Assembly: GCA_021201965.1 (NCBI GenBank)
Contig: JAJQDY010000055.1
Coordinates: forward strand, 8,563-40,562
From: Phascolarctobacterium sp.
Lineage (GTDB): Bacteria > Bacillota > Negativicutes > Acidaminococcales > Acidaminococcaceae
DNA: 32,000 nucleotides
Reading direction: 5' to 3'
The notes beneath the pieces were generated by a model that saw nothing but the letters and a program-made list of their open reading frames with translations, was not told where the DNA came from and searched no databases. A program made the translations under genes and the position numbers. Positions 24,220 through 32,000 of this stretch are shown piece by piece (the stretch's first letter is position 1; every line of letters starts with the position of its first letter).

Positions 24220-24702
24220 TTATTTTTCTGTCCTGAGCGCCTTCAACACGTCTTCAGTAATGTCAACGCCGCCGAAGATTACCGTTTTCTTGTCGACAAC
24301 AACGGACAGGCCTTTCTTGTCGGCCACTTTTTTGATCTCCTCTTTCGTCTTGGCGCGGATGGGCTCAAGCAGCTCCTTCTCCTTGGCAGCTAGACGTTCC
24401 TGCAGCTCGGAGTAATGGCTGCGTTTCTGGTCTTCGTTCATGTCCTGGCTTTTTTCGTTGAACTCGTTCTGGGCGACCTCTATTTCCGCCTGCATGATCT
24501 CCCTGACGTTTTCAACCCCGGGGCTCTGCGTTATGAGTGCCTGGTAATTTATGGTACCTATGGCACTTTCCATGGCGGCTTCGCTGGAAGCACTGAAGAT
24601 TCCCTTGTCAATGGAATAAGCAAAGCAGCCGATTACAAAGATCGCCGCCACGATGAGGGAAACCATCTTGACATTTTTCGGATTGCGCAATTGCTGCATC
24701 AT
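24220..24702 (-). CDS. skp: Skp/OmpH-family periplasmic chaperone
   Basis: It has a signal/anchor, ...INYQALITQSPG..., a coiled-coil core and the end KKGLSVVVDKKTVIFGGVDITEDVLKAL. AGGAG SD. It is 160 aa. Confidence 0.8.
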   Translation of the reverse strand: MMQQLRNPKNVKMVSLIVAAIFVIGCFAYSIDKGIFSASSEAAMESAIGTINYQALITQSPGVENVREIMQAEIEVAQNEFNEKSQDMNEDQKRSHYSELQERLAAKEKELLEPIRAKTKEEIKKVADKKGLSVVVDKKTVIFGGVDITEDVLKALRTEK

Positions 24703-24753: not shown

Positions 24754-24782
24754 ATTATAACAGTATAGGCGCATTCTTTCAA
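24754..24782 (-). promoter_or_regulatory. sigma-70-type promoter upstream of the skp-lpx genes
   Basis: Minus strand reads TTGAAA-N17-TATAAT (tttcaa 24777-24782, attata 24754-24759). It lies in the 89-nt AT-rich gap, about 50 nt upstream of the skp ATG. Confidence 0.55.
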
Positions 24783-24791
24783 CTTTTCCGC

Positions 24792-26057
24792 CTACAAATT
24801 CCCTATAAGGCGGAGGTAGAATTCGTCCCCGCCGTAAACGGCTTCGGCACTGAGAAATTCATGGATGCGGTAGCGCACGCCGTACTCGTTCCTGTTGCTG
24901 CCGGAAAAATGCTCCGTGCGCAGGCGCCATCTGGGTCCAAGGTAATATTCAAACTTCCAGTCGTTTTCGCTCTTTGGGATCCTCCTTGCATAGGTCCAGG
25001 CGCTCTTGCCCCAGTGATATGTATAGCCGAGGCCGAATATCCAGTCCATGTCATTTAAATAGACTTCCGCCTCGCCGAATACTTCATGATCGGTCAGGAG
25101 GAACCTGCCGACATGGGCCTTGCCGGACAGGTTGTTCTTATCCCTGCCCACATCGCCGTAACCTTCAAACCAGATTTTATACTCATTGGATGTGAGAAGG
25201 ATTTCAACATCCGTGTCAGGACCGGGGGTAATGCTGACCTTAGGTTTTAAGCGGTAAAGCTTACCGTCCGCCTCGTCTTCCAGCTGCGCCCTGAGGGACC
25301 CCGTGATTTCATCCCTGTTGCGTTTCACGTGTTCAACGGGAAGCCCGCGCAGCTTATCACATTCCACGCGGTATTTGTTTTTAAGTTTCATTAAAAGGAG
25401 GTTCGGAATTGCTTCTGACCTCAGTTCGTAATTTATGGTCCTTACCAGCTGCCCCACGGGATAGATGACAACCTGTACCACGGTCCTGTCGCCTTCCTGT
25501 ACAAGATCGACCGCCGCCTTGAATTCAGGGAGGGCATTTTCCACTTCATCCCTCACGATCCTTCTTAAGACGCCTACCGCCCAGTCGCTAGCATCAACCG
25601 ATGCTCCCCTTATGGTGTAGAGCAGGTCATTCTTAAGCTGCGGCATCCGCTCTTCAAGAAGCTCTGCTGCCGCAGGCTCCACGCCGGAAAACTGTATGTC
25701 AAGGTCCACGTTTTCTATGGTATTATTCCAGGGGTATATTTCAAGGGTTATATAAGTCGTCGGCCCGAGGGTCATATAGGTATTGCTTATTTCGTAGCCG
25801 GTAAGCACCCTGTCGCCGATTTCCGTAAGGAGCCTTGTATAGTCCACTTCAGAAAGGCGCACTATTTCCGTGTCCTTGTCCGCAAGGATCTGCTTGGCAA
25901 CCACCTGCATGCTGCTGCCCATTTTCCTGAGCAGCGGCCCGCTGGTGTCGCCCCTTATGTCAACGACATTCACGCTCACGCTGTCTATCGGCATAGAAAA
26001 AGCTTGCTGCAGCGGCATAAGTGCCAGTGCAGCAATGGTAAGAATCTTAAAATTCAT
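24792..26057 (-). CDS. exported protein of unknown function: three repeated alpha/beta-looking modules plus an aromatic-rich beta C-terminal domain (putative OM protein)
   Basis: Signal peptide is MNFKILTIAALALMPLQQAFS. Internal module ends recur: TYITLEIYP (about aa 109) and TVVQVVIYP (about aa 200). About 26 of the last 133 residues are W/Y/F, in an alternating pattern. SD GGAGAG lies in the 17 nt after the bamA stop. Confidence 0.6.
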   Translation of the reverse strand: MNFKILTIAALALMPLQQAFSMPIDSVSVNVVDIRGDTSGPLLRKMGSSMQVVAKQILADKDTEIVRLSEVDYTRLLTEIGDRVLTGYEISNTYMTLGPTTYITLEIYPWNNTIENVDLDIQFSGVEPAAAELLEERMPQLKNDLLYTIRGASVDASDWAVGVLRRIVRDEVENALPEFKAAVDLVQEGDRTVVQVVIYPVGQLVRTINYELRSEAIPNLLLMKLKNKYRVECDKLRGLPVEHVKRNRDEITGSLRAQLEDEADGKLYRLKPKVSITPGPDTDVEILLTSNEYKIWFEGYGDVGRDKNNLSGKAHVGRFLLTDHEVFGEAEVYLNDMDWIFGLGYTYHWGKSAWTYARRIPKSENDWKFEYYLGPRWRLRTEHFSGSNRNEYGVRYRIHEFLSAEAVYGGDEFYLRLIGNL

Positions 26058-26074
26058 ATATTTCTCTCCACAAA

Positions 26075-28324
26075 TCAGAATTGTCCGCCAAAGCTGAAAT
26101 GGAATTTACCTCCCGCATCGCCGTAGCCGTAATCAAGTTTAATGGGACCGAGAGGGGAATTGATGCGTATGCCGAAACCGCCGCTCGTCTTTACGAGGCC
26201 TAAATCGAAATAGTCCTCATGGCGTTTATCCCATGCGTAGCCGTTATCAATAAAGAATCCGCCCTGTACCCTCTTGGCCAGCGGGAAACGGTATTCAAGC
26301 GTTGCCTTTAAGAGGCTGTTGCCACGGAACTGGTCATCCTCGTAGCCACGCAGCGTATCGCTACCGCCCATGGAGAAGCGCTGTGACAGCGGCATGTCGC
26401 CGTGGGCATAGCCTCCGACGAGGTTCCACGCCCAGATCTGGTTCCTGCCGGCACGGTAATAATATCTCCCGTCTGCTGTAAGTTTGGTAAATGTAAAGTC
26501 ACCGCCGAGACCGGCCCATTCTACGCTGTAGCCTATGCGTTTGCCGGCATGCGGATCGTACTGGTTGTCGCGGGAATCGTATACGCGGCCGATCGTTACG
26601 CTCCTGGTGCGGCCGAAGTTCTCCTTGCGGCGTTCCCTGTAGTCCGTGGGATAGTAATCCTTCCAGTGTTTGCTGTTATTAAACTGCGGTTCGTAGTACT
26701 GGTTGGTATCGCCATTATAGCCGTCGGCCTGGCCGTCATAAATATCATCACGGTTCTTCAACGTGAGATAGTTGCTGATGAACTCATTATGCGTCTTCCA
26801 GCTCATGGTAATTTCCTGGCCCCTGCGCTTTTTATCATATCTTGCGATTTCGTGGCCGCCGATATCGTAATCCGCATATTCCGCAGTGATATCATATAGG
26901 TTAATGCTTGCCTGGGTTTCATGCTTATCTATCCAGGGTTTTACATATGTCAAATCGTAGTTCTTATCATCCTCGCCGCCAAACTCCCAGCGGAGCATAA
27001 CGCTGTCACCAGTGCCGCGGAAGTTCTTGTCGCCGATGGAGATCATGCCGATGAACCCGTCGGCGTCACTGTATCCTGCGCCTACGCCGAAGGTGCCGGT
27101 ATTCATTTCAACTACGGATATTTCAACCTCGACGCCGTTTTCCTCGCGTCCAGGATTTAATCTTACGTTAACGTCCTCGAAGAAGCCGAGGTTATAGATA
27201 CGCTGCATGCTGCGGCGGGCAAGTTTCGCATTGAAAGGTTCGCCTTTTTTCAGCCGCATTTCACGGGTAATTACGTAATCCTTACATTTTTTGTTGCCCT
27301 TAACCTTGAAATCCTCGACTATGCTTTCGTTTGCGGTTATGCTCAATGTCCCGTCCTGGGCCATGTGCACGTCGCTTACGCGGGCCAAAATATACCCGTC
27401 GGCACGGTACAGTTCCTCAAGTTTCTGGACCCTGGTATTAATATCCTTTAAATTGGCAGTATGGCCTGCAGGCATGTCAAACAGCCTATCTATCTTATCC
27501 TGTGCGATGACCGTATTGCCTTTTACTTCCAGTCTCTCATAAATGGGGTTTTCCATGACATGGTAGTTAACCTCGACGCCTTCGGGGACAAGGCGGAACT
27601 CCGGACGCATATCATAGAACCAGCCCATTTCATAAATGGCGCTCAAATCCTCACTGAGACCCATTTCCGTAAATTCCATGCCGGGCTTGGTTTTAAGGAC
27701 ACTCCTTATTTCGTTGTCCGTTACGACTGTATTGCCGCTGAAGATCTGCAGCGTTATGGTCCTCCCTATATAGGGCTGCAGGTTCAGTTCCAGCGGAATT
27801 TCCCTGGTGAGCATCTCTTCCTCTTCCTTAAGGAAGGGATCTTCAACCTGTTCCGGTTTTGCAATCACGTCACCTTCTGAACTTAAGGAAATACTTTCTT
27901 CACTTTTAGGCGGCTCTCCGGCATCCACCGGGATTACTTCCCCGCTCCCGCCGGTGTTGGGCAGCCTTATTTCCCCAATCACAGGGGCACTGTCAGCTTC
28001 AGGCTGCTGGGCCGAAGCATCAATTGCCGGTACCCCGCCCATAGTTTCATAGTAGTTCGGGATTAGCGTACCGTTTTTAGCGGCCTTTTTCGCCTTCTTC
28101 TGAAACTCCTTGGCCTCTTTCTTGGCTTTCTTCTGGGCCGCTTTCTCGGCCCTAAGCTCGTCATTCTGGGTCCTTACGTAAGGATTCCTTCCACCTGCAC
28201 CGATGGAAATCGTATCGGATGCAGACCGGTCCGAGCCGAAAGCGTCTTTCGCATAGGCTGGCACCTGCAGCATGGCAATCGCCAGTGCTACTGATATGAG
28301 TAGCAACAGCTTTTTCTTATTCAA
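26075..28324 (-). CDS. bamA: outer membrane protein assembly factor BamA (Omp85) with K/A-rich N-terminal extension
   Basis: It has a signal peptide, POTRA-like modules (about aa 180-420), and a barrel with ...GTFGVGAGYS..., ...LRGY... and a terminal ...KFHFSFGGQF. It is 749 aa. Confidence 0.9.
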   Translation of the reverse strand: MNKKKLLLLISVALAIAMLQVPAYAKDAFGSDRSASDTISIGAGGRNPYVRTQNDELRAEKAAQKKAKKEAKEFQKKAKKAAKNGTLIPNYYETMGGVPAIDASAQQPEADSAPVIGEIRLPNTGGSGEVIPVDAGEPPKSEESISLSSEGDVIAKPEQVEDPFLKEEEEMLTREIPLELNLQPYIGRTITLQIFSGNTVVTDNEIRSVLKTKPGMEFTEMGLSEDLSAIYEMGWFYDMRPEFRLVPEGVEVNYHVMENPIYERLEVKGNTVIAQDKIDRLFDMPAGHTANLKDINTRVQKLEELYRADGYILARVSDVHMAQDGTLSITANESIVEDFKVKGNKKCKDYVITREMRLKKGEPFNAKLARRSMQRIYNLGFFEDVNVRLNPGREENGVEVEISVVEMNTGTFGVGAGYSDADGFIGMISIGDKNFRGTGDSVMLRWEFGGEDDKNYDLTYVKPWIDKHETQASINLYDITAEYADYDIGGHEIARYDKKRRGQEITMSWKTHNEFISNYLTLKNRDDIYDGQADGYNGDTNQYYEPQFNNSKHWKDYYPTDYRERRKENFGRTRSVTIGRVYDSRDNQYDPHAGKRIGYSVEWAGLGGDFTFTKLTADGRYYYRAGRNQIWAWNLVGGYAHGDMPLSQRFSMGGSDTLRGYEDDQFRGNSLLKATLEYRFPLAKRVQGGFFIDNGYAWDKRHEDYFDLGLVKTSGGFGIRINSPLGPIKLDYGYGDAGGKFHFSFGGQF

Positions 28325-28338
28325 ATCCCAGGTCCCCC

Positions 28339-28776
28339 TTATTTACTGAGCTCCGTCTTGGCAGACCGTACCAGCCGGCGCATGTCGGCATTTGATATCA
28401 CTGGTCTTGCGACGGAGCGCTCGGCAGGCACTTCTCCGGAATAAACTTCTTTCCCGCTTGCTTCCTTTGCGCGGGCTTGAGCCTTCACTACGCTCTGGGT
28501 CACATCTGCCTGCATGGCATGCTGTGCCGAAACGCCGTGGTAATACCAGCCGCCGAACCCTGCCAGGACTAAAAGTATGGCCGTGCAGACCGCCAGCATG
28601 TGTCTGTTCCAATTCCATGGGACGTCACTTTTACGGCGCAGGTTTTTCAGCTCTGCTTCAGCAAGCATTAAATCAAGCTCGCCGCGCATGCCGTTATTAT
28701 CAAGAAAATTCTGTTCCGCATTTTCAAGACTGCTTTTTACGGTACGGATTCTCTGGGATACCTGTTTCTGTTCCAT
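28339..28776 (-). CDS. single-pass membrane protein, unknown function (anti-sigma-factor-like topology)
   Basis: It has about 58 aa of cytoplasmic helical N-terminus, the TM segment MLAVCTAILLVLAGFGGWYY, and about 65 aa outside. It lies 14 nt upstream of bamA and is the next gene after the sigma factor. No zinc-finger or other recognisable motif. Confidence 0.5.
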   Translation of the reverse strand: MEQKQVSQRIRTVKSSLENAEQNFLDNNGMRGELDLMLAEAELKNLRRKSDVPWNWNRHMLAVCTAILLVLAGFGGWYYHGVSAQHAMQADVTQSVVKAQARAKEASGKEVYSGEVPAERSVARPVISNADMRRLVRSAKTELSK

Positions 28777-28912
28777 AACGTGACCTACTTCCTGAAAAAT
28801 AGATGTAAATACATAATCCTTTTTTAAGATTTATTGACTTTCCGTTTTTTGGAGATTTTCCCCACATTACGCAGCTTATCTTGCGTTTACTTTTAAAATC
28901 ACCATTATATGA

Positions 28913-29548
28913 CTACTCTTTGTTAAGTTCGTGAATGAATTTTGAAAGCATGCTGCGTACCCTGCGCACTCCCTGCTTCTGCAAACGGTACACATGCCCG
29001 GGGCTTATATCAATGGCATCGGCTAAGGTTTTTGCCGTCTTGTCTTCAAGGTAAATGCCGGTTAAAACCATCTGTTCCTTCTGCGGCAGCCTTTCAATGG
29101 CCAGTGCCACTTTTTCCTGCAGCATCTGCTGTTCCACTATTTCAAGTGGCGATGTATCGGCAGATACAAGCGTATCACCGAGAATTACTCCTGATGTCGT
29201 TTCCCCTTCGAGGTAGAGCCGCCCCTTCCAAGAAATCTTTTTCAGGAAATCCATCATGCATCCCTTAATGCGGTATGAAGCAAAAATACTGAAGGCCACG
29301 CCGCGCGTATTGTCGTAATTTCCCGCAGCTTCAAGGAGTCCTACCATTCCTTCCTGGATAAGCTCCATGGTTTCCGCTTCAGGCAACGCGAAAGAAATGG
29401 CAATTTTAAATACTAGGGGCTGGTAGGAAGTCATGAGTTTCCTGTGCGCCTCGGTATCCCCTGCCCTCGTCTTCTCCCACAGGGAGTATTCTTCATCAGG
29501 CTGCAAAAGTTTTGTCTTACGCAGTTCTTCTAAGTATTTCTGCAGCAT
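28913..29548 (-). CDS. sigma-70 family RNA polymerase sigma factor (group 3, FliA/SigB-like architecture)
   Basis: Region 2 reads LVFKIAISFA...ELIQEGMVGLLEAAGNYD...FSIFASYRIKGCMMDFLKK. Region 4 HTH reads KTLADAIDISPGHVYRLQKQGVRRVRSML. It is 211 aa and starts 14 nt after the tamB stop. Confidence 0.85.
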   Translation of the reverse strand: MLQKYLEELRKTKLLQPDEEYSLWEKTRAGDTEAHRKLMTSYQPLVFKIAISFALPEAETMELIQEGMVGLLEAAGNYDNTRGVAFSIFASYRIKGCMMDFLKKISWKGRLYLEGETTSGVILGDTLVSADTSPLEIVEQQMLQEKVALAIERLPQKEQMVLTGIYLEDKTAKTLADAIDISPGHVYRLQKQGVRRVRSMLSKFIHELNKE

Positions 29549-29562
29549 TTTACACCTCCATG

Positions 29563-32000
29563 TCAGAATCTGATCCTATATTCGAGCTCTACCCAGTCAT
29601 CCGGATCCGTCAAACCATAGGTTCGGGAATATGCAAGATTTATATGCCTACTAATATCGTACTGTCCAAAGATACTTCTGTCAATACCATTGAAACTTGT
29701 CGTGTAGCCGATCATAAGATGCGACGTAAAGTATTTGCTTATCAGCATGTTGTAATGGTTCTTATCATCTGTGCTAAGTTCACTGCTGCTTGCCTGCTTC
29801 ATGGTTTCGAAACCGTCACCGCTCCTTATCTGTCCAGTGTAGATGCGGAACTGGTCAATACCCCGCGACTGCTTCAGCATCATCTCAACGTCGCCTAGGA
29901 CCGCCATCTGCAGGCCCACCGCCATGAGGTTTTGCATATCTTCACCGGTTATTTCATCCCCTCCGACTGCATCGGCACGCTGCAGTGTCAGCATACAGAT
30001 AATGGTATTCTGCTCGAGTGGCGGATTACTTGTAAGCTTCATGTTTATGTCTTCAATGGGCCCTTTAATGGTCACGTAAATATAGTACCTGCTGAAGCGG
30101 GCTTCGCTTTCAATATTTACCGTCGGGAAGAAAGTCCTCTTGGTCGGCCAGGAAAGTGATGCCTCTTTCAGCTTAAAGGGCGTGCGCAAATATGTAACCG
30201 TGCCGTGGTCCACGCTCAAATCGCCGCTGATATCCGGGAAAAGGCTGCTGCCTTCTATATGCATACTTTCTACTACCAACAGGTCGTAGAAGAATTTATT
30301 GAATAAATGAATCTTAGGACCGAGCTCTATATTAAGATCCAATCCGATATTGGTTCCGCCGTCCCCCATATCAGGAACCGTAGGAACATTAAAGAGTGCG
30401 TCTTCCACCCTTACATTGCCGCTTATCTTCGGCCGGTAGCCACTTTCCGCTTCCGTAGTTTCCGTGGCACGCTTCCTGTAACCTTCAGTCGTTATGGTAA
30501 GTTTGCTGTTCAGCCTGCAGGTCAGAATGTCTGATACGAGTTCCGCATCATTTGCCACGATATGCAGCATGTAGCTTTGGTCCTCGCTGCTGCGCAGGCC
30601 GTAGGTACCATTAAAGGCAATAGTGCCCTTGCCGAGCTGCGTGGAAAGATCATCCAGACGCACCTGGTCACCGTCAAAGACAAGCTCCGTATTGATTTTA
30701 TCTACAACTGTATCAGCGTCCTTTATCTTTATGCAGCCTTCTCTTATGGTAACGGAACCGAAAGTAAAGGGTTCTTCCAAAGTCCCCGCAAGGACTATGT
30801 TGCCGGCCGTTTCGCCAATTGCCCATTCAACCTGTTTGAAAAGGGCGGGCAGTATACCGAGCTGGGCCTCACTCATGTCGACATTAATCCTCATCTGGGC
30901 ATCCGGCTTGCGGCGCTCTTCTTTGGCGCACACAAGATCAACCTGGAGGAAGCCCCTGGCCTTGACGCTATAGATATCCTTTACAATATATGCCTCGGTT
31001 AAGGTAACCAGGTCATCGGCAAGTGTGAATTTCGTGGAAAGGGCATCAATCGGTGCCCCTGCAAAAGAGCCGTTAACTATTTCGGCATCTGCGCTGCCAG
31101 CCGGGTTATCGAAAGGTCACTGCACCTTGACCGCAATATTCATTTCACCTTTTATCTCAGGCGGATCCTTTACAAAGGCCATGGTAAGCATAGGATCTGC
31201 CTTCACCGCATTAAGCCCCACATCAATAGTCCTGCCGTCAAAATCGATCTGCCCGTCTATTATGATGCTGCCTTTGTCCGTTACGCCCTTTTTCTTCAGC
31301 AGATGGAAATTGTCAAAATAGAGCACGTCCTTTACCACATTGGCGTCAAAGAGCATATCGTTATAATGCAGTCTGTGGATGCGCACGTCATCTGCGGACA
31401 GCCGTAAAACCCAGCCGCTGCCGCTCCTGTGCGAATATGGCTGCTTAAATGAAGCCACGACCCTGTTGGTTGCGCCGCCATCAGCTTCCGCATGTCATGA
31501 TATATTCGTCAGCGACTCGCCATTAGCGATTATTTTATCGCTGCTGACATCGCCGGTAAAGACCGGCCTGTTAAGCGTTACCTTTAAAGTTCCCATGGCA
31601 TTCACAAAGCCGTCTATGTCATAATTCTTGTCCGATACGGGGAGCCTGTCGAGATCAAGATCCTTGGCATCCAGTTCAAAATCAATGCTGTTGTCGTAGA
31701 TGGACATGGTACCGTTCAGCTCAGCCTGGGTGGCCAGCGCGGCAATCTTGACATTCTTTATTTCCAAGTGCGACGGATCAATGTCATAGCTTCCCTTCAC
31801 CTTATCTATGAGGTAACCTTCTATACTACCCTTGGTGAGGCATAAATCACCCTTGGCACTGAAGCTGTTCATTGTTCCCCACACATGCATGTCGCTGTCA
31901 ATATCGCCGGTAAGGTCAAGATCCTGCCCGGCCGTCTTAAGCAGCGGTTCGATGCGTACGTGGTCTGATTTTATATCCAGGTCGAACACGGGATTATCCG
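29563..32000 (-). pseudogene. tamB: tamB (translocation and assembly module subunit, DUF490 C-terminus); 5' end outside window; frame interrupted by two in-frame TGA codons
   Basis: Track ORFs 31495..31989, 31117..31458 and 29563..30933 share one frame. Hand translation of the gaps shows no other stop. The TGAs are at 31495-31497 and 31117-31119. It has repetitive beta-rich sequence with G-x-h-x-x-P and ISG motifs, and ends ...DDWVELEYRIRF. Confidence 0.8.

What the first reader, a model, noticed from the sequence alone, without database searches (positions are those of the whole stretch)
24792..26057. Uncharacterised 421-aa exported protein coupled to bamA: three repeated modules plus a small aromatic-rich beta domain
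This gene starts 17 nt after the bamA stop, with its SD in the gap, so it is probably co-translated with BamA. I recognise no family. It has a Sec signal peptide, then three modules of roughly 85-90 aa. Two of them end in the same motif (TLEIYP about aa 109, VVIYP about aa 200). The last 133 aa has about 20% W/Y/F in an alternating amphipathic pattern, ending ...EFYLRLIGNL, which is like OM beta-strands. N-terminal repeated periplasmic modules plus a C-terminal membrane beta domain resembles a miniature Omp85/TamA-like layout. To my knowledge the BamB-E lipoproteins of Proteobacteria have not been described in diderm Firmicutes. A conserved unknown gene between bamA and skp is therefore a candidate lineage-specific BAM or TamB partner.
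Basis: inference. Interest (0 to 1): 0.65.

Follow-up and report, generated by a model that had tools for sequence, protein, structure and literature searches.

The report
SonA, a mini-BamA-like outer-membrane protein
This gene is the local copy of SonA, a small outer-membrane protein first described in 2026 (three POTRA-like domains on a ten-stranded barrel) that diderm Firmicutes encode directly after bamA; it is real and well conserved but already published, and its function is still unknown.

Summary
Window 24792-26057 (minus strand) encodes a 421-aa protein that starts 17 nt after the bamA stop. It has a Sec signal peptide, three mutually related modules of about 85 aa, and an aromatic-rich C-terminal domain.

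It is not an unknown family. It is the orthologue of SonA (Acetonema longum F7NM22; Beskrovnaya et al., Nat Commun 2026), matching at 29% identity over 402 aa (E 2e-59). It lies in the same sonB-bamA-sonA-skp operon. AlphaFold2 (pLDDT 89) gives three beta-alpha-alpha-beta-beta (POTRA-fold) domains plus ten strands. Foldseek matches only Omp85 proteins for the whole model. For the C-terminal domain alone it matches small transmembrane barrels.

Homologues occur in 164 of 201 Negativicutes genomes searched. They are almost always immediately downstream of bamA.

Points not in the paper:
- The family also occurs in the Anoxybacter order of Halanaerobiales and in several uncultured lineages.
- It was not found in 99 other Halanaerobiia genomes.
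- Its POTRA-like modules show no sequence-level relation to the BamA POTRA domains.
- In this lineage tamB is a pseudogene while sonA stays under purifying selection (dN/dS 0.10). This argues against an obligate TamB partnership.

Function remains unproven. A BamA-linked helper role in outer-membrane protein assembly is the best guess.

The parts
24792..26057 (-). sonA coding sequence (421 aa plus stop)
   Evidence: ORF. It matches A. longum SonA (F7NM22) at 29% identity over 402 aa, E 2e-59.
25995..26057 (-). Sec (SPI) signal peptide, residues 1-21, no lipobox
   Evidence: Read from the sequence. AF2 gives a low-confidence N-terminal helix at residues 4-18.
25731..25982 (-). POTRA-fold module 1 (residues 26-109), beta-alpha-alpha-beta-beta
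   Evidence: AF2 secondary structure. hhalign to modules 2 and 3 gives 97% and 95.5%.
25458..25712 (-). POTRA-fold module 2 (residues 116-200)
   Evidence: Contains the invariant W159 and nearly invariant P177 and P200.
25191..25439 (-). POTRA-fold module 3 (residues 207-289)
   Evidence: Contains the invariant P218 and P240.
24795..25181 (-). C-terminal ten-stranded beta-barrel domain (residues 293-421)
   Evidence: Ten strands appear in both AF2 models, with pLDDT 92 for the domain alone. The best fold match is the designed 10-stranded transmembrane barrel 8uzl (E 3.4e-5, TM 0.51), followed by OmpG, Ail, KdgM and OmpA. All ten strands alternate hydrophobic and polar faces.
26064..26069 (-). 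Shine-Dalgarno GGAGAG in the 17-nt bamA-sonA gap
   Evidence: Read.
26075..28324 (-). bamA (749 aa; low-complexity N-terminal extension, 3 POTRA, Omp85 barrel)
   Evidence: Pfam and NCBIfam hits. It is the only Omp85 gene in the genome.
28339..28776 (-). sonB-like gene (145 aa; cytoplasmic helix, one TM helix, short C-terminal part)
   Evidence: E 1e-10 to A. longum SonB F7NM24, with the same layout.
28913..29548 (-). Sigma-70 family factor (regions 2 and 4) that precedes sonB in every SonA-bearing locus examined
24220..24702 (-). skp1 (OmpH), the next gene downstream
   Evidence: Pfam OmpH E 6.9e-16.
24754..24782 (-). Promoter-like site (TTGAAA-17-TATAAT with TG, 11 of 12 matches) in the 89-nt sonA-skp1 gap
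   Evidence: Consensus scan only. It suggests skp1 may also have its own start.

Best explanation
The gene is the orthologue of SonA, the small POTRA-plus-barrel outer-membrane protein of diderm Firmicutes.

It is made from the bamA operon (sigma - sonB - bamA - sonA - skp) and exported by Sec. The ten-stranded C-terminal barrel would anchor it in the outer membrane, with three POTRA-fold domains reaching into the periplasm.

Most likely mechanism (inferred): it is an auxiliary factor of BamA-dependent outer-membrane protein assembly. The POTRA arm would receive or hold unfolded OMPs or Skp-OMP complexes by beta-augmentation. The short-stranded barrel would place that arm at the membrane next to BamA. 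It does not need TamB.

Shown here: identity, domain fold, synteny, purifying selection, and independence from TamB. Shown in the literature for the A. longum orthologue: co-expression with BamA and spontaneous insertion into liposomes. Inferred only: the helper role in OMP assembly.

My confidence is about 0.95 for 'this is SonA' and about 0.4-0.5 for the BamA-helper mechanism. The figure given below blends the two.
For: Identity. L031:4023-5300 from genome G052 is letter-for-letter UniRef100_F7NM22 / WP_004097360.1, the A. longum SonA. P0001 aligns to it end to end at 29% identity, E 2e-59, and by phmmer at E 1.3e-50 against 1.84 billion proteins (P0144). The upstream 145-aa protein matches SonB F7NM24.

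Fold. AF2 gives pLDDT 89.2 and pTM 0.72, with three beta-alpha-alpha-beta-beta modules and ten strands. All 50 listed Foldseek PDB hits are Omp85-superfamily proteins (BamA, TamA, Toc75, FhaC), with E down to 2e-11. The isolated C-domain model (pLDDT 92.2) is closest to a designed 10-stranded transmembrane barrel and to small natural OMP barrels.

Synteny. Homologues occur in 164 of 201 genomes and 70 of 81 genera of the class. They are single copy and full length. In about 120 of about 121 genomes where both coordinates were listed, the gene lies immediately 3' of bamA on the same strand (compared by hand). The same sigma - sonB - bamA - sonA - skp - lpxD order is seen in Halanaerobiales MAGs and uncultured lineages.

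Constraint. dN/dS is 0.097 against the 89%-identical relative, equal to bamA at 0.087 and skp1 at 0.10.

TamB independence. tamB here has two frame changes and four in-frame stops. The same lesions occur in an independent assembly. There is no second TamB-family locus in the genome.

Literature. SonA is co-expressed with BamA and is protease-protected after incubation with liposomes (PMC13018214).
Against: No interaction with BamA has been shown. The published cross-linking co-IP with anti-BamA serum recovered only a porin and a peptidase, not SonA.

SonA has been lost in whole genera: g6 and g37 here, and A. fermentans and V. parvula in the paper. It was also not found in 99 of 102 Halanaerobiia genomes. 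It is therefore not a core BAM component.

Its modules have no sequence-level similarity to BamA POTRA domains (hhalign below 2%). The POTRA assignment therefore rests on predicted fold alone.

I could not read model coordinates, so the hydrophobic belt of the barrel was not measured. Strand amphipathicity alone does not separate a membrane barrel from a soluble one.
Confidence: 0.6

Rival explanations
1. SonA is the outer-membrane docking partner of TamB. It would be a TamA analogue, with the TamB C-terminus binding a SonA POTRA domain to make a trans-envelope TAM-like machine.
For: tamB lies just upstream in the same cluster in nearly all loci examined. TamA is among the best fold matches (8us1 and 4c00). 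The authors of PMC13018214 raise this possibility.
Against: In this lineage tamB is a pseudogene with two frame changes and four stops, and the lesions are shared with an independent assembly. It is the only PF04357 locus in the genome. Meanwhile sonA is intact with dN/dS 0.097. Conversely, the SonA-less genera keep tamB directly upstream of bamA. Each protein therefore persists without the other.
Confidence: 0.1
2. SonA is an autonomous self-inserting 'pioneer' insertase. It would seed or catalyse OMP insertion independently of BamA, for example in a membrane that has no OMPs yet. This is the spore-germination model of PMC13018214.
For: A. longum SonA inserts spontaneously into liposomes at 30 C and is up-regulated at germination. 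The barrel has short strands of 7-12 residues, the shortest at the C-terminal seam. That is reminiscent of membrane thinning by BamA.
Against: SonA is conserved in non-sporulating gut lineages such as this 1.4-Mb genome, and its presence does not track sporulation. Small barrels in general fold spontaneously into liposomes, so insertion does not show catalysis. No Omp85 sequence signature is present: there is no PF01103 hit and no RG(Y/F) loop-6 motif.
Confidence: 0.15
3. The sigma factor, SonB and SonA form an envelope-spanning signalling module. SonB would be a membrane anti-sigma factor and SonA its outer-membrane or periplasmic sensor of OMP-assembly status, tuning transcription of the bamA operon.
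For: SonB has a cytoplasmic helix, one TM helix and no lipobox, and it always follows a sigma-70 r2/r4 gene. It has a faint NCBIfam anti-sigma hit at E 0.0023. Every full-length SonA locus examined (17 or more) also carries the sigma gene and sonB. Two SonA-less genera have lost all three.
Against: Classical Halanaerobiia keep the sigma gene and SonB without SonA. The sigma-sonB gaps of 127-189 nt are not the tight coupling usual for sigma/anti-sigma pairs. There is no test of binding. POTRA-barrel proteins are not known as sensors.
Confidence: 0.08
4. The C-terminal domain is a soluble ten-stranded barrel of the FABP, nitrobindin or lipocalin kind. SonA would then be a periplasmic carrier with no membrane domain.
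For: The domain is about 130 aa with ten strands, the size of soluble ten-stranded barrels. Nitrobindin, nitrophorin and Rv2717c appear among the weaker fold matches at TM 0.40-0.46. The alternating strand pattern fits either kind of barrel.
Against: The best fold matches are transmembrane barrels, and the whole model matches Omp85 proteins only. The hydrophobic face is rich in W/Y/F/G/A, and the polar face carries conserved charges E298, E325, R380, E391, E405 and R416, like the lumen of small OMPs. The A. longum orthologue is protease-protected by liposomes and is predicted to be an OM protein.
Confidence: 0.05

Closest known systems
SonA of Acetonema longum (UniProt F7NM22; Beskrovnaya et al., Nat Commun 2026, PMC13018214)
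   Same: Homologous over the full length (29% identity, E 2e-59). Similar size (421 aa here, 426 aa in A. longum). Sec signal, three POTRA-fold domains and a ten-stranded barrel. Same position between bamA and skp1, with sonB upstream of bamA.
   Different: This copy comes from a small-genome, presumably non-sporulating Phascolarctobacterium-related lineage whose tamB is dead. The BamA here carries a 180-aa low-complexity N-terminal extension.
BamA / TamA / Toc75 / FhaC (Omp85 superfamily, PF01103 plus PF07244)
   Same: Overall layout of N-terminal tandem POTRA-fold domains followed by a C-terminal outer-membrane beta-barrel. These are the only significant whole-model fold matches (E to 2e-11).
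   Different: The barrel has 10 strands, not 16. There is no PF01103 or PF07244 hit and no loop-6 RG(Y/F) motif. hhalign probability is below 2% to BamA POTRA domains or barrel. Whole-model TM-scores are only 0.17-0.23.
Small 8-12-stranded outer-membrane barrels (designed TMB10_163 8uzl; Ail/OmpX, OmpA TM domain, KdgM, OmpG)
   Same: The isolated C-terminal domain superposes best on these (TM up to 0.51-0.54). It shares their very short loops and aromatic-rich outward face.
   Different: No natural OMP matches closely, and none of these carries POTRA domains.
BamB-E lipoproteins of Proteobacteria
   Same: A possible functional analogy as a lineage-specific BAM accessory encoded beside bamA.
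   Different: SonA is not a lipoprotein (no lipobox), has an unrelated fold, and has no shown contact with BamA.

Membership tests
SonA (diderm-Firmicute POTRA-barrel protein) | Sequence homology to A. longum F7NM22 over the full length | tested here: met
   BLASTP gives 29% identity over 402 aa, E 2e-59. phmmer gives E 1.3e-50. The identity of the reference was proven by exact look-up.
SonA (diderm-Firmicute POTRA-barrel protein) | Gene lies between bamA and skp1, with sonB upstream of bamA | tested here: met
   The same order is seen in A. longum.
SonA (diderm-Firmicute POTRA-barrel protein) | Sec signal, three beta-alpha-alpha-beta-beta domains and a ten-stranded barrel | tested here: met
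   AF2 models and the sequence.
SonA (diderm-Firmicute POTRA-barrel protein) | Inserts into lipid bilayers / located in the outer membrane | not testable with these tools
   Shown only for the A. longum protein in vitro.
Omp85 superfamily (BamA/TamA/TpsB) | 16-stranded barrel matching PF01103 | tested here: not met
   No Pfam hit even at E 10. Ten strands. hhalign of the C-domain against the BamA barrel gives 1%.
Omp85 superfamily (BamA/TamA/TpsB) | POTRA domains recognisable by sequence profile (PF07244 / PF08479) | tested here: not met
   No hit in P0001 or in any of 56 family members. hhalign is below 2% to BamA POTRA1-3, while those three match each other at 96-98%. The fold-level match is met.
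Omp85 superfamily (BamA/TamA/TpsB) | Conserved loop-6 (V/I)RG(Y/F) motif inside the barrel | tested here: not met
   No such motif in residues 291-421 (sequence). The inter-strand turns are only 1-6 residues long.
TamA-like TamB receptor | Co-occurs and co-functions with an intact TamB | tested here: not met
   tamB is a pseudogene here and the only TamB-family locus. SonA-less genera keep TamB.
BamB-E type BAM lipoproteins | Lipobox with an acylated Cys | tested here: not met
   No Cys in the signal peptide; the cleavage motif is A-F-S.

The most novel reading that the evidence does not exclude
The sigma factor, SonB and SonA are one ancestral envelope-spanning control module of diderm Firmicutes. 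In this reading SonB is a membrane anti-sigma factor. SonA would be an outer-membrane POTRA-barrel sensor that reports the state of OMP assembly to it, so that the bamA-skp operon is tuned to demand. That would be a sigma-E / Fec-like logic built from unrelated parts. Nothing I found excludes it. Full-length SonA was never seen without the sigma gene and sonB, and two genera lost all three together.
Probability: 0.08. Interest if true: 0.65.

Novelty: already known. Interest (0 to 1): 0.35.

Why it matters
Diderm Firmicutes have BamA but none of the BamB-E lipoproteins. What helps BamA in these bacteria, and in Terrabacteria generally, is an open question. SonA is the only conserved outer-membrane candidate encoded in the bamA operon.

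The gene in this window is an ordinary orthologue, so the finding itself is not new. Four observations made here narrow the hypotheses that a bench study has to test:
- SonA survives under purifying selection in a lineage that has lost TamB.
- It extends beyond the Negativicutes to the Anoxybacter order and several uncultured lineages, always in the same gene order.
- It was not found in most Halanaerobiia.
- It is unrelated in sequence to the BamA POTRA domains.

They also suggest natural 'knock-out' lineages for comparison.

Tried and rejected
1. Pfam, NCBIfam and PDB sequence searches on P0001 and on the family profile found nothing significant.

2. Self-BLAST of the single sequence showed the repeats only weakly. 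Profile-profile comparison was needed to establish them.

3. The search for related loci failed with the 56-sequence alignment because no stretch was conserved enough. With the A. longum protein it found no relative. The A. longum identity was settled by exact cluster look-up instead.

4. I tested whether SonA-less genera compensate with extra BamA POTRA domains, and rejected the idea. BamA has three POTRA domains everywhere examined. The N-terminal extensions are low-complexity sequence without POTRA signal, and they also occur here together with SonA.

5. I tested whether the SonA modules are recent copies of the BamA POTRA domains, and rejected that too (hhalign below 2%).

6. Strand amphipathicity as a test of membrane against soluble barrel was inconclusive, because the POTRA sheets alternate too.

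7. Supplementary tables of the SonA paper are not held.

Barrel closure, shear and hydrophobic thickness were therefore not measured.

10. The taxonomy of the uncultured SonA-bearing lineages could not be verified. Their NCBI labels are 'Armatimonadota', 'Bacillota' or 'Bacteroidota bacterium'. I cannot say whether Limnochordia are among them.

Full report
WHAT IS THERE

The ORF at 24792-26057 is on the minus strand and encodes 421 aa. The bamA stop (TGA, 26075-26077) is followed by a 17-nt gap, which holds GGAGAG at 26064-26069, and then by the ATG at 26055-26057.

The upstream gene is BamA, with an Omp85 barrel and three POTRA domains. Downstream lie three Skp/OmpH genes and lpxD. Upstream of bamA are a 145-aa single-pass membrane protein, a sigma-70 family factor, and the remains of tamB.

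The three-fold repeat is real. On a 56-member family alignment the three modules recognise each other by hhalign at 94-97% probability (E 5e-11 to 1e-7). None recognises the C-terminal domain.

WHAT IT IS

No Pfam or NCBIfam model matches the protein or any of 56 relatives. A profile search of PDB sequences finds nothing significant.

The literature does have it. Beskrovnaya et al. (Nat Commun, Feb 2026, PMC13018214) named two conserved proteins of the Acetonema longum bamA operon. [quoted passage not shown] The reported gene order is sonB-bamA-sonA-skp1.

I tested membership directly. Genome G052 of the class sample carries a 426-aa gene after bamA. Its product is, by exact look-up, UniRef100_F7NM22 / WP_004097360.1, and the gene before bamA is F7NM24.

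The window protein aligns to SonA over 402 residues at 29% identity, E 2e-59. By phmmer it scores E 1.3e-50 in a library of 1.84 billion proteins. The 145-aa protein aligns to SonB at E 1e-10 with the same layout. The gene is therefore the SonA orthologue.

STRUCTURE

AlphaFold2 on a 33-sequence alignment gives pLDDT 89.2 and pTM 0.72. The model has three beta-alpha-alpha-beta-beta modules (residues 26-109, 116-200 and 207-289) followed by ten strands (293-420) joined by very short turns.

All 50 listed Foldseek PDB matches are Omp85-superfamily proteins: BamA, TamA, Toc75 and FhaC. E-values reach 2e-11, but whole-model TM-scores are only 0.17-0.23, as expected for a flexible multi-domain model with a smaller barrel.

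The C-terminal 135 aa modelled alone gives pLDDT 92.2. It is closest to a designed ten-stranded transmembrane barrel (8uzl, E 3.4e-5, TM 0.51), then to OmpG, Ail, KdgM, OmpA and related barrels. Soluble ten-stranded barrels rank lower.

Every one of the ten strands alternates between two faces. The hydrophobic face is rich in W/Y/F/G/A. The polar face carries conserved charges E298, E325, R380, E391, E405 and R416. This fits a small OMP with a polar lumen but does not prove it. Model coordinates were not readable.

At the sequence level the SonA modules and barrel are unrelated to the BamA POTRA domains and barrel (hhalign below 2%). The three BamA POTRA domains match each other at 96-98%. 'POTRA' here is therefore a fold assignment. 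SonA fails the membership tests for Omp85: no PF01103 or PF07244 hit, ten strands instead of sixteen, and no loop-6 motif.

DISTRIBUTION AND SYNTENY

Homologues occur in 164 of 201 genomes and 70 of 81 genera of the class. They are single copy and full length, at 25-62% identity.

I compared the coordinates by hand with a BamA search of the same genomes. In about 120 of about 121 genomes where both positions were listed, the gene lies directly 3' of bamA on the same strand, with gaps of roughly 15-430 nt. The one exception has the two genes on different contigs.

SonA was not found in one genus of the same family (g6, 0 of 7) or in the sampled genomes of genus g37 of family f26. In an example of each, bamA is followed directly by skp1 and preceded directly by tamB, so the sigma gene, sonB and sonA are all missing. 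This matches the absence in A. fermentans and V. parvula reported in the paper.

The family is small. Only 243 representatives at 50% clustering reach E 1e-3, nearly all of them 380-470 aa or fragments.

The family also extends beyond the paper's survey:
- It occurs in Anoxybacter fermentans, which NCBI places in the order Halanaerobiales.
- Two Halanaerobiales MAGs show the order SonB-like, bamA, SonA-like, three skp genes, lpxD.
- Only 3 of 102 genomes of that class match the family profile.
- Two non-matching genomes have tamB - sigma - SonB-like - bamA - skp, with no gene in between.

HOW IT MOST LIKELY WORKS

The deep conservation of the bamA-sonA junction and the POTRA-barrel layout point to a role in outer-membrane protein biogenesis beside BamA. 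So does the co-expression with BamA published for A. longum, together with its liposome insertion.

My best guess is a membrane-anchored POTRA arm that docks substrates or Skp-substrate complexes for BamA. This is inference.

There is evidence against a stable complex. The published cross-linking co-IP with anti-BamA serum did not recover SonA. Several lineages also live without it.

A NEW CONSTRAINT ON THE HYPOTHESES

I verified it.

An intact 1429-aa TamB from the closest relative (89% SonA identity) maps onto this contig in three pieces, in frames -1, -3 and -1, with four in-frame stops. The same lesions are present in an independent assembly that is 99.1% identical. Four relatives have intact tamB. 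The genome has no other TamB-family locus and only one Omp85 gene.

Yet sonA is intact, with dN/dS 0.097 against the relative. That equals bamA (0.087) and skp1 (0.10).

Within the tamB-dead lineage, sonA differs at 6 of 1266 nt (2 aa). The tamB remnant differs at 17 of 1371 nt (10 aa).

SonA therefore persists without TamB, and TamB persists without SonA. An obligate SonA-TamB machine is unlikely.

COMPARISON AND NOVELTY

The gene is a member of the SonA family, with all testable defining features met. It resembles Omp85 proteins in layout but is not a member of that family.

The finding is already known in kind. The added value here is fourfold: the wider and patchier distribution, the lack of sequence relation to the BamA POTRA domains, the TamB-independence, and the suggestion that the sigma factor and SonB may be a regulatory pair tied to SonA.

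LIMITS

- Function is untested.
- The taxonomy of the uncultured lineages is unverified.

Noticed in passing
window 29563-32000 and beyond (G000:C16 up to about 42200): tamB is a pseudogene in this lineage, with two frame changes and four in-frame stops (TAG, TAA, TGA, TGA). The lesions are shared with the independent assembly GCA_021203645.1. Relatives with 88-89% SonA identity keep an intact 1429-aa gene. There is no other TamB-family locus in the genome.
   Followed up: yes
window 28339-29548: SonB (145 aa) has a cytoplasmic helix with a conserved GEL-L-LA-AEL-like motif, one TM helix and no lipobox. It always follows a sigma-70 r2/r4 gene. It looks more like an anti-sigma factor than the 'OM lipoprotein' of the paper, and has a faint NCBIfam anti-sigma hit at E 0.0023.
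   Followed up: partly
window 27776-28324: BamA carries an N-terminal extension of about 180 aa of low-complexity sequence with no POTRA signal. Most Negativicutes BamA proteins align only from residue ~180 of this one. Similar-length but dissimilar extensions occur in the SonA-less genera g6 and g37, so the extension does not track SonA.
   Followed up: partly
window 24754-24782: A strong promoter-like site (TTGAAA-17-TATAAT with an upstream TG, 11 of 12 matches) sits in the 89-nt gap between sonA and skp1. The skp genes may therefore have their own start in addition to read-through.
   Followed up: no
It matches only the SonA barrel domain (family profile positions 306-427, E 4e-7), so it is a POTRA-less, possibly lipidated SonA variant. 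No sigma gene or sonB was detected upstream.
   Followed up: partly
L045 and L046 (G340, G327); class of G201: Classical Halanaerobiia keep tamB - sigma - SonB-like - bamA - skp but have no SonA. 99 of 102 genomes show no match. Only the Anoxybacter order has it.
   Followed up: yes
L054:7570-9983: In the closest relative (GCA_965307805.1) bamA is called as two ORFs (244 aa and 541 aa), split inside the low-complexity N-terminal extension. This may be a real frameshift or an assembly error in repetitive sequence.
   Followed up: no
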